From: Candidatus Eiseniibacteriota bacterium
GTDB lineage: Bacteria; Eisenbacteria; RBG-16-71-46
Direction of reading: 5' to 3'
Length of the DNA: 64,000 nt
NCBI GenBank assembly: GCA_035275545.1
Contig: DATEMP010000019.1
Location: forward strand, 2,538 to 66,537
The first letter of the stretch is position 1; the number at the start of each line of letters is the position of its first letter. The translations under genes were made by a program, and so were the position numbers. Positions 39,113-39,389 of the stretch are shown here, piece by piece. The notes under the pieces were generated by a model, which made no database searches, was not told the DNA's origin, and saw only the letters and a list, made by a program, of their open reading frames with translations.

Positions 39113-39121
39113 GCGGGGCCC

Positions 39122-39215
39122 GACACCCCGCAGCACGAGCGGGCGGCGATGAGCAAGCGCCCGCCCACATCCTGGTGCCCACGCCGAGCCTCTCTACATC
39201 CTACTCATCTGCGAG
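39122..39215 (+). pseudogene. Frameshifted relic of an Lhr-type helicase gene (internal fragment only)
   Basis: Hand alignment to the resident lhr at 42023-42118 gives about 10 substitutions and two 1-nt deletions over about 96 nt. It encodes [28 protein letters not shown] against resident [29 protein letters not shown]. Track ORFs 39149..39397 and 38962..39381 are its broken frames. Confidence 0.7.
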
Positions 39216-39389
39216 TCGAACGCATCCCCCGCTCTCCGAAGTTCGATGCTTCCTACCAGCCCGCTTGCTTCGTCAATTCTCAGACTCTAGAAGTGTCCCG
39301 AGACTACCGGGACGACGCTCTGGGGAAAGGCGATTGCAACGTTCCCCCTGTCGGGCCGCGTGCCTGTTTGTCAGCTGCTAGAAGAGTGG

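What the first reader, a model, noticed from the sequence alone, without database searches (positions are those of the whole stretch)
39113..39389. Frameshifted roughly 95-nt relic of an internal lhr segment, in direct orientation 2.9 kb upstream of the same segment in the intact lhr
Seen in the sequence:
- Positions 39122-39215 align by hand to 42023-42118, inside the resident lhr, with about 10 substitutions and two single-base deletions over about 96 nt.
- The resident segment encodes [32 protein letters not shown], which lies between helicase motifs I and II.
- The copy starts 10 nt after the methyltransferase stop codon.
- Similarity fades by about 39235, and no lhr N-terminal sequence precedes it.

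Inference, with two non-exclusive readings:
- (a) The ATPase-methyltransferase operon once continued into its own Lhr-like helicase gene, giving an ATPase-methylase-helicase system. That gene was largely deleted or overwritten by the 39.2-41.6 kb segment.
- (b) The two copies are the direct-repeat scars of recombination or integration at lhr. They bracket the HEPN-like and nuclease genes plus the lhr 5' end, which would make lhr an insertion hotspot.

Either reading bears directly on what belongs to the neighbouring candidate system.
Basis: seen in the sequence. Interest (0 to 1): 0.7.

Follow-up and report, generated by a model that had tools for sequence, protein, structure and literature searches.

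The report
Decayed lhr fragment in defence island
A real but dead 95-base copy of part of the neighbouring lhr helicase gene sits between two independently acquired defence-gene cassettes; it is an old recombination scar, not the remains of a helicase that belonged to the adjacent ATPase-methyltransferase system.

Summary
Window 39121-39215 matches 42022-42118 inside the resident lhr: 85/97 identical, two 1-nt deletions, same orientation, E=1e-27. The Smith-Waterman score is 126, against at most 33 in 300 dinucleotide shuffles. An independent assembly reproduces the region exactly.

It is the only lhr-like fragment in the window. Its substitutions show no third-position bias and hit residues conserved in all aligned Lhr orthologues, so it is non-coding and decaying. 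It resembles the resident lhr (85/97) and the closest relative's lhr (86/97) about equally. It keeps two ancestral bases that the resident gene has lost, so the copy is old.

Reading (a) is not supported. The DUF87/HerA-like ATPase plus methyltransferase pair occurs in six other contexts, and no helicase follows it in any of them. Cassette homology stops at 39119, two bases before the relic.

Reading (b) is partly supported. The relic is a recombination scar in a 12-kb low-GC defence island that ends 13 nt before the lhr start codon. However, there is no recombinase, no displaced lhr 5' end, and the repeats are not att-like.

My favoured origin is illegitimate recombination anchored in lhr, but this is inferred. 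Interest is low.

The parts
39121..39215 (+). lhr relic. A 95-nt decayed copy of lhr codons 115-146, with two frameshifting 1-nt deletions and 10 substitutions. GC is 0.68.
42022..42118 (+). The homologous segment inside the intact resident lhr. It encodes [32 protein letters not shown], between helicase motifs I and II.
41681..45721 (+). Resident lhr, called as 1346 aa (alternative upstream starts at 41657 and 41615). Domains: DEAD, Helicase_C, WH_Lhr, DEAD_assoc, WH3 and WH4_Lhr. GC is about 0.71. Homology to the closest relative (L065) begins at 41668.
37100..39119 (+). Two-gene cassette: DUF87/HerA-like ATPase (37100-38392) plus class I SAM methyltransferase (38429-39112). Homology to other copies of the cassette ends at about 39119.
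39216..39389 (.). Non-coding spacer (GC about 0.57) between the relic and the end of the convergent minus-strand genes. It has no RNA-family match and no unusual fold.
39390..40170 (-). Minus-strand unit. A 212-aa protein with an R-x4-H (HEPN-like) motif seen by eye (39532-40170), followed by an overlapping 49-aa ORF (39390-39539). No Pfam match. Homologues at 35-40% identity occur without the neighbouring genes.
40376..40915 (+). 179-aa ORF of unknown family. It has no Pfam or PADLOC match.
40922..41551 (+). 209-aa ORF with a D...E-x-K motif seen by eye. It behaves as a single-gene cassette. It shares 77-78% nt identity with L069 and L070 over exactly 40922-41511, in otherwise unrelated contexts.
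29805..41667 (.). Low-GC (0.55-0.65) defence island lying between the cold-shock gene (29537-29740) and lhr. The left edge is where homology to L062 ends (29804). The right edge is where homology to L065 begins (41668).

Best explanation
The 95-nt element is a non-functional, decaying fragment of a chromosomal-type lhr gene from this Candidatus Eisenbacteria lineage. It is stranded at the junction between two independently acquired cassettes in a defence island that directly abuts lhr. It does nothing now; it records how the island was built.

The most likely history is inferred, not shown:
1. lhr is the conserved gene at the island's edge, so it served as the homologous anchor when foreign DNA was recombined in.
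2. An earlier event joined the end of the ATPase-methyltransferase cassette to lhr at about nt 342, truncating that copy.
3. A later homology-facilitated illegitimate recombination brought in the HEPN-like gene, the two small ORFs and an intact lhr 5' end. One crossover lay inside lhr and the other was an illegitimate join at relic position 39215/39216.
4. This restored a complete lhr and orphaned codons 115-146 of the old copy, which have since drifted.
For: Shown:
- Homology is highly significant and the two copies are in direct orientation.
- The fragment is isolated, with abrupt ends. No other lhr piece is found by tblastn, blastn or profile search.
- It is decaying. There are two frameshifts. 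The 10 substitutions fall 5, 4 and 1 on codon positions 3, 1 and 2. They change residues conserved in all aligned Lhr orthologues, for example T->P and S->P in VTTPESL.
- Its source is this clade's lhr: 85/97 to the resident gene, 86/97 to L065 (whose Lhr is 89% identical in protein), 80/97 to L066, and under 80% to the rest. GC is 0.68 against 0.57-0.60 in the surrounding island.
- The copy is old. The relic keeps ACC-CCG-CAG, as in L065 and most orthologues, where the resident gene has ACG-CCG-CAC. It also carries 8 unique substitutions and 2 indels.
- The left junction coincides with the end of the two-gene cassette at 39119.
- Genes on both sides assort independently in other genomes.
- The island ends 13 nt before the lhr ATG. 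The lhr neighbours differ in the two closest relatives.

Precedent: orphan gene fragments and arrays attributed to homology-facilitated illegitimate recombination anchored in a conserved flanking gene are described for Vibrio cholerae T6SS and for Rhs loci (PMC5361080).
Against: - The stepwise history cannot be checked, because no strain-level relatives exist in the collections. Exact-protein look-ups returned only the same strain, and the closest lhr loci have unrelated flanks.
- A sliding-window comparison of the resident lhr with L065 and L066 shows no obvious mosaic breakpoint downstream of codon 146. With only two relatives this test is weak.
- Microhomology at the right junction cannot be assessed, because there is no pre-insertion sequence.
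- None of 60 other lhr loci carries a comparable relic, so lhr-anchored insertion is not shown to be recurrent.
Confidence: 0.5

Rival explanations
1. Short ectopic patch or filler DNA. A single illegitimate event inserted a roughly 95-nt single-stranded or broken piece of the nearby lhr between the two cassettes when they were joined. This could have been end joining or short-patch double illegitimate recombination. No lhr copy was ever truncated. The patch then decayed.
For: - The fragment is short, isolated and has two abrupt ends.
- One event would explain both junctions.
- The likely template lies only 2.9 kb away in the same orientation.
- Integration of ectopic single strands at microhomologies is documented in Acinetobacter baylyi (bioRxiv 10.1101/2023.11.22.568220).
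Against: - I recall reported SPDIR patches as mostly much shorter than 95 nt; I did not check this in a paper.
- The relic lacks both resident-specific substitutions. The copy therefore either predates them or came from another lineage.
- There is no way here to inspect microhomologies at the junctions.
Confidence: 0.25
2. Integration-site repeats. The segment 39216-42021 (the HEPN-like gene, the two small ORFs and an lhr 5' end) is an integrative element that entered lhr by site-specific or Campbell-type recombination. The two copies are its attL and attR. The displaced original lhr 5' end was later deleted.
For: - The two copies are direct repeats, and the intact gene is the downstream one.
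- The flanks of lhr vary between relatives.
Against: - No recombinase domain is detected in any of the four ORFs in the bracketed segment, and there is no tRNA.
- The repeats are 88% identical, with a longest exact run of 18 nt.
- No lhr 5' sequence lies left of the relic; the methyltransferase cassette abuts it directly.
- The lhr 5' end inside the putative element has host GC of 0.71-0.73, and is 91-96% identical in nucleotides to L065 over overlapping 60-codon windows spanning the first ~180 codons.
- The genes inside the segment assort singly elsewhere, not as one element.
Confidence: 0.08
3. Reading (a). The relic is what remains of an Lhr-like helicase gene that was the third gene of the ATPase-methyltransferase system.
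For: - The relic starts 9 nt after the methyltransferase stop and is in the same orientation.
- Defence systems that include Lhr-related helicases exist; BrxHI of BREX has a C-terminal domain like that of Lhr (PMC12839542).
Against: - None of six independent contexts of the cassette has a helicase after the methyltransferase, and there is no Lhr tblastn hit in the five with DNA.
- Cassette homology ends before the relic.
- The relic begins at lhr codon 115, with no upstream helicase sequence.
- Its composition and closest relatives are those of the chromosomal lhr of this clade.
Confidence: 0.04
4. Functional element. The lhr-like stretch is kept because it does something. It might be a 3'-UTR or sRNA that pairs with lhr-related sequence, or a homology arm that helps the cassette array recombine next to lhr in new hosts.
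For: - It lies in the 3' untranslated region of the ATPase-methyltransferase operon.
- It has persisted while the flanking DNA turned over.
Against: - There is no Rfam match at E<=1.
- Folding energy is not unusual on either strand (z = -0.16 and +1.39).
- It is sense, not antisense, to lhr.
- The substitutions and indels look neutral.
- It is absent from all other copies of the cassette with DNA in hand, and no own-lhr relic is found in 60 other lhr loci.
- An 18-nt longest identical run is marginal for homologous recombination.
Confidence: 0.03

Closest known systems
Orphan gene fragments left by sequential displacement or homology-facilitated illegitimate recombination, as in Vibrio cholerae T6SS effector-immunity arrays and Rhs/CDI orphan 3' ends (PMC5361080)
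   Same: - A conserved gene at the edge of a variable locus acts as the anchor.
- Incoming modules displace older sequence and leave orphaned, same-orientation fragments of that sequence inside the variable region.
- No dedicated recombinase is involved.
   Different: - Here the orphan is a single 95-nt internal piece of the anchor gene itself, not an array of orphan immunity genes or toxin 3' ends.
- The locus is a defence island in an uncultured Eisenbacteria MAG.
- The mechanism is inferred from one fossil, with no series of intermediate strains.
attL/attR direct repeats of integrative elements that target protein-coding or tRNA genes
   Same: They are direct repeats of a host-gene segment that bracket foreign low-GC DNA, with the intact gene copy at one end.
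   Different: - There is no integrase.
- The repeats are 88% identical rather than sharing an identical core.
- The displaced gene portion is missing.
- The bracketed genes are independently assorting cassettes.
Short-patch double illegitimate recombination and filler DNA at end-joining junctions (bioRxiv 10.1101/2023.11.22.568220)
   Same: A short ectopic stretch copied from elsewhere in the genome is inserted at a junction, with abrupt ends on both sides.
   Different: - At 95 nt it is long for that mechanism.
- It is old and diverged, so its junction microhomologies can no longer be read.

Membership tests
Decayed gene fragment (pseudogene relic) of lhr | Statistically significant nucleotide homology to the parent gene | tested here: met
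   85/97 identical, E=1e-27. Smith-Waterman score is 126 against a shuffle maximum of 33.
Decayed gene fragment (pseudogene relic) of lhr | Reading frame disrupted, and truncated at both ends | tested here: met
   There are two 1-nt deletions. Only codons 115-146 are present, and no other Lhr-like coding remnant occurs in 28000-41680.
Decayed gene fragment (pseudogene relic) of lhr | Substitution pattern without purifying selection | tested here: met
   Half of the substitutions (5 of 10) are at codon positions 1 or 2. They change residues conserved in all 47 aligned orthologues, whereas differences between orthologues are mostly at third positions.
attL/attR repeats of a site-specific integrative element | Recombinase (tyrosine or serine integrase) encoded in the bracketed segment | tested here: not met
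   There are no Pfam hits at E<=5 for any of the four ORFs in 39390-41551. No integrase was found among the ten island ORFs of 150 aa or more that were scanned in 29.8-41.6 kb.
attL/attR repeats of a site-specific integrative element | Identical core sequence in both repeats | tested here: inconclusive
   The longest identical run is 18 nt (CACGAGCGGGCGGCGATG) and overall identity is 88%. An old core could have decayed.
attL/attR repeats of a site-specific integrative element | Displaced part of the target gene adjoining the outer repeat | tested here: not met
   The methyltransferase cassette abuts the relic at 39119/39121, and no lhr 5' sequence occurs anywhere upstream.
Three-gene ATPase-methyltransferase-helicase defence system (BREX-like logic) | Helicase gene conserved downstream of the methyltransferase in homologous loci | tested here: not met
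   No helicase follows in any of six contexts: L067, L068, JGI 3300071358, L084, L085-88 and L089. tblastn with Lhr finds nothing in the five contexts with DNA.
Three-gene ATPase-methyltransferase-helicase defence system (BREX-like logic) | The fragment shares the composition and ancestry of the cassette rather than of the host gene | tested here: not met
   Relic GC is 0.68 against about 0.58 for the cassette. Its nearest sequences are the chromosomal lhr of this clade.
Homology-facilitated illegitimate recombination / sequential displacement scar | A conserved anchor gene directly borders the variable region, and the orphan is in the same orientation | tested here: met
   The island ends 13 nt before the lhr ATG, and the relic is on the plus strand like lhr.
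Homology-facilitated illegitimate recombination / sequential displacement scar | Mosaic ancestry (a breakpoint) in the anchor gene downstream of the duplicated segment | tested here: inconclusive
   Sliding-window identity to L065 and L066 shows no clear breakpoint. Only two relatives at 84-89% protein identity were available.
Homology-facilitated illegitimate recombination / sequential displacement scar | Microhomology at the illegitimate junction | not testable with these tools
   No pre-insertion or donor sequence is available. Exact-protein look-ups return only the same strain.
Described structured RNA family | Match to an Rfam covariance model, or an unusually stable fold | tested here: not met
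   There are no Rfam matches at E<=1 in 38900-41900. Fold z-scores are -0.16 (plus strand) and +1.39 (minus strand).

The most novel reading that the evidence does not exclude
The lhr fragment is not just debris. It is a retained homology arm. Defence-cassette arrays in Eisenbacteria would then move between genomes as naked DNA and re-insert next to lhr by recombination anchored on such carried-along pieces of the conserved flanking gene, which would amount to an integrase-free targeting mechanism for defence islands.
Probability: 0.05. Interest if true: 0.5.

Novelty: new member of a known kind. Interest (0 to 1): 0.2.

Why it matters
The main value is in drawing boundaries:
- The DUF87/HerA-like ATPase plus methyltransferase pair is a complete two-gene cassette ending at about 39119. 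No helicase should be added to that candidate system.
- The HEPN-like gene and the two small ORFs between the relic and lhr are separate, individually mobile cassettes rather than parts of one operon-level system.
- The relic is a small piece of direct evidence that, in an uncultured phylum, a defence island next to a conserved housekeeping gene was assembled by illegitimate recombination that once cut into that gene, without any integrase.

This adds one more example of a known kind of scar. It is not a new principle.

Tried and rejected
- **Chance or GC-rich similarity:** rejected.
- **Assembly chimera:** rejected. An independent assembly is identical, and the shared exact run is only 18 nt.
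- **More lhr debris elsewhere in the island:** none found by tblastn, sensitive blastn or a six-frame search with an Lhr N-terminal HMM.
- **Other repeats bounding the island, or tRNA genes:** none.
- **Defining an empty site:**
  - The closest lhr homologues, L065 (89%) and L066 (84%), have unrelated flanks.
  - Exact-protein look-ups with the methyltransferase, the cold-shock protein and PCMT returned only the same strain, plus one distant relative, L062, in which lhr is not next to the cold-shock gene.
- **Metagenome scan for a relic-specific 24-mer:** no hits.
- **Mosaic breakpoint in lhr:** none visible with two relatives.
- **Recurrence of lhr relics beside lhr in other genomes:** none in 60 loci.
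- **RNA family, terminator or promoter in the intergenic region:** nothing.
- **Pfam assignment of the three genes between the relic and lhr:** none even at E<=5. The 'HEPN-like' and 'nuclease' labels rest only on short motifs seen by eye.

Full report
**1. Observation**

The claimed similarity is real.
- blastn of 39000-39600 against the whole window gives one non-self hit. It aligns 39121-39215 to 42022-42118, both on the plus strand: 85/97 identical, 10 substitutions, two 1-nt gaps, E=1e-27. The next hit has E=0.11.
- A Smith-Waterman score of 126 compares with 23.7 +/- 2.3 (maximum 33) for 300 dinucleotide-preserving shuffles.
- The methyltransferase ORF ends at 39112, so the copy begins 9 nt after the stop codon.
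- The resident segment encodes D115-E146 of the called Lhr, between motif I and motif II.
- The two ends are abrupt. Nothing else in the window resembles lhr by tblastn, sensitive blastn or a six-frame search of 28000-41680 with an HMM of 120 Lhr N-termini.
- An independent Logan assembly from another run (L002) is 100% identical over 29988-41839. The two copies share at most 18 identical bases in a row, so this is not a misassembly.

**2. Setting**

The window is an ENA metagenome contig (ERZ27257057 k141_2823494). Its Lhr is named in NCBI as coming from a Candidatus Eisenbacteria MAG.

A low-GC block (0.55-0.65, against about 0.70 in the flanks) runs from about 29.8 to 41.67 kb.
- Its left edge is where homology to a relative's FabH/cold-shock region stops, at 29804.
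- Its right edge is where homology to the closest relative's lhr locus starts, at 41668, which is 13 nt before the lhr ATG.

The block carries these genes:
- an HNH endonuclease
- an NHL-repeat protein
- two ORFs of unknown family (31909-32901 and 33395-33895)
- a Type IIG restriction-modification enzyme
- a DUF87/HerA-like ATPase
- a class I SAM methyltransferase
- the relic
- a minus-strand 212-aa ORF with an R-x4-H motif, plus a 49-aa ORF
- two plus-strand ORFs of 179 and 209 aa with no family match

No tRNA gene is present, and no integrase was found among the ten island ORFs of 150 aa or more that were scanned. The relic pair is the only sizeable repeat in 28.5-46.5 kb.

**3. Where the fragment came from**

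- Among 60-odd lhr loci, the relic is closest to the resident lhr (85/97) and to the lhr of L065 (86/97), whose protein is 89% identical. It is 80/97 to L066 and under 80% to the rest.
- Its GC is 0.68, like lhr (0.70) and unlike the adjoining spacer (0.57).
- In a 49-sequence alignment (the relic, the resident gene and 47 orthologues), the relic keeps ACC-CCG-CAG (Gln), as in L065 and most orthologues, where the resident gene has ACG-CCG-CAC (His).
- It also has eight substitutions and two deletions of its own, at positions conserved in all the orthologues.
- The ten differences from the resident gene fall 5, 4 and 1 on codon positions 3, 1 and 2. They include T->P and S->P inside VTTPESL.

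So the fragment derives from a chromosomal-type lhr of this clade. It was copied before the resident gene acquired its two private changes, or from a sister lineage, and it has since drifted without selection. Counting relic-specific changes (8 of 97 sites) against resident-specific synonymous changes (2 in 32 codons) suggests an age comparable to the split from the L065 lineage. The numbers are small, so this is only a rough estimate.

**4. Reading (a): a lost helicase of the ATPase-methyltransferase system**

- Most methyltransferase homologues (44 of 56 listed) are 224-233 aa long and align over at least 98% of the query, so the window's gene is complete.
- The ATPase-methyltransferase pair recurs in six other contexts:
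  - next to PLD, McrBC and Type I R-M genes (L067)
  - in a Gemmatimonadales MAG (L068)
  - on a JGI contig
  - in an integrase-bearing element (L084)
  - next to HEPN_RiboL-PSP and RES-Xre genes (L085-L088)
  - in L089
- What follows the methyltransferase differs each time and is never a helicase. tblastn with Lhr finds nothing in the five contexts with DNA.
- DNA homology of the cassette to L068 runs through the stop codon to 39119 (TGAGCGGGGC against TAACGGGGC), and the relic starts at 39121.

Lhr-related helicases do occur in defence systems; BrxHI is an example (PMC12839542). Even so, composition, ancestry and comparative context all argue against reading (a).

**5. Reading (b): a recombination or integration scar at lhr**

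The scar idea fits. The relic sits exactly at a cassette boundary, and the genes to its right are also individually mobile.
- The 209-aa ORF has 77-78% nucleotide homologues in L069 and L070 over exactly 40922-41511, with unrelated neighbours. L069 is another contig from the same sample, in an integrase-bearing element next to a SIR2_2 gene.
- The HEPN-like ORF's homologues occur without the other genes or lhr.
- The lhr neighbours differ on both sides in the two closest relatives.

A clean attL/attR picture fails.
- No recombinase lies between the copies.
- The repeats are only 88% identical.
- No displaced lhr 5' end precedes the relic.
- The lhr 5' end between the copies has host GC of 0.71-0.73. 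It is 91-96% identical in nucleotides to L065 over overlapping 60-codon windows spanning the first ~180 codons.
- lhr is not shown to be a general hotspot that leaves relics. Sixty other lhr loci, with 402 kb of upstream flank plus their downstream flanks, contain no fragment of their own lhr beyond 28-39-nt matches.

**6. How it most likely arose (inferred)**

Two illegitimate junctions have to be explained: the cassette end joined to lhr nt 342, and lhr nt 437 joined to the spacer.

My preferred account is displacement anchored in lhr.
- An earlier island junction had cut into lhr.
- Incoming DNA carrying the right-hand cassettes plus an intact lhr 5' end then recombined homologously inside lhr and illegitimately at 39215/39216.
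- This restored lhr and orphaned codons 115-146 of the old copy.
- Homology-facilitated illegitimate recombination is documented experimentally in several bacteria. It has been proposed to explain orphan fragments in T6SS and Rhs loci (PMC5361080).

The main rival is a one-step insertion of a short ectopic lhr patch at the cassette junction, by an SPDIR-like or filler-DNA mechanism (bioRxiv 10.1101/2023.11.22.568220). I could not discriminate between these two. A mosaic test on lhr is uninformative with only two relatives, and no strain-level relatives exist in the collections.

**7. Present function**

None is indicated.
- There is no Rfam match.
- No terminator or promoter consensus is present.
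- Fold energies are unremarkable on both strands.
- The substitution pattern looks neutral.
- With an 18-nt longest identical run, the repeats are marginal substrates for homologous recombination. A deletion between them would in any case truncate lhr.

**8. Verdict**

The element is an old, inert lhr fragment that marks a recombination junction. Reading (a) is rejected, and reading (b) is accepted only in a weakened form. It is a further example of a known kind of scar. Its practical value is that it fixes the 3' boundary of the two-gene ATPase-methyltransferase cassette and shows that the neighbouring genes are separate cassettes. Interest is low, at about 0.2.

Noticed in passing
window 37100-39119: A DUF87/HerA-like ATPase (430 aa) and a class I SAM methyltransferase (227 aa) form a conserved two-gene cassette. 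It occurs in at least six unrelated contexts, at least four of them defence-type: PLD/McrBC/Type I R-M, patatin, an integrase element, and HEPN_RiboL-PSP/RES-Xre. PADLOC gives only generic HerA hits and weak hits to MADS components (mad8 at 7e-16, mad2 at 3e-7). It looks like an undescribed candidate defence pair.
   Followed up: partly
window 40922-41551; L069 10001-10627; L070 5362-5991: The 209-aa ORF (D...E-x-K motif by eye, no Pfam match) behaves as a single-gene cassette. Its 77-78% nucleotide homology starts exactly at the ATG and ends about 40 nt before the stop codon. One copy (P0179) is on another contig of the same sample and carries the same NCBI locus-tag prefix. That copy lies inside an integrase-bearing element next to SIR2_2 and a ResIII/N6_N4 methyltransferase pair.
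   Followed up: partly
window 41552-41680: Homology to the closest relative's lhr locus begins only 13 nt before the lhr ATG. The native lhr promoter region has therefore been replaced. lhr must now be transcribed from island DNA or by readthrough from the 209-aa ORF on the same strand.
   Followed up: no
window 29839-36921: The rest of the island holds an HNH endonuclease (PADLOC Type II REase-like), a 319-aa NHL-repeat protein, two ORFs of unknown family, and a 1018-aa Type IIG restriction-modification enzyme (PADLOC REase_MTase_IIG, E=1e-241).
   Followed up: partly
window 45733-46373 and about 48300-48900: A Fic/DOC plus MazE-like antitoxin pair lies on the minus strand immediately after the lhr stop codon. 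Further on there is a Gp49 (HigB-like) plus HTH pair. GC is also depressed (0.60-0.65) over much of about 46-56 kb. The downstream side of lhr is therefore variable too, and it differs in L065 and L066.
   Followed up: no
window 25255-25833: An AbiEii-like nucleotidyltransferase toxin ORF (Pfam E=1.9e-5) lies in host-GC DNA left of the island, beside a DUF6930/DUF7309 protein.
   Followed up: no
window 42032-42034: The resident Lhr has His (CAC) where the relic, the two closest relatives (L065, L066) and many of the other 45 aligned orthologues have Gln (CAG), in the DTPQ(H/R)ER stretch. This is a private change in the resident lineage.
   Followed up: yes
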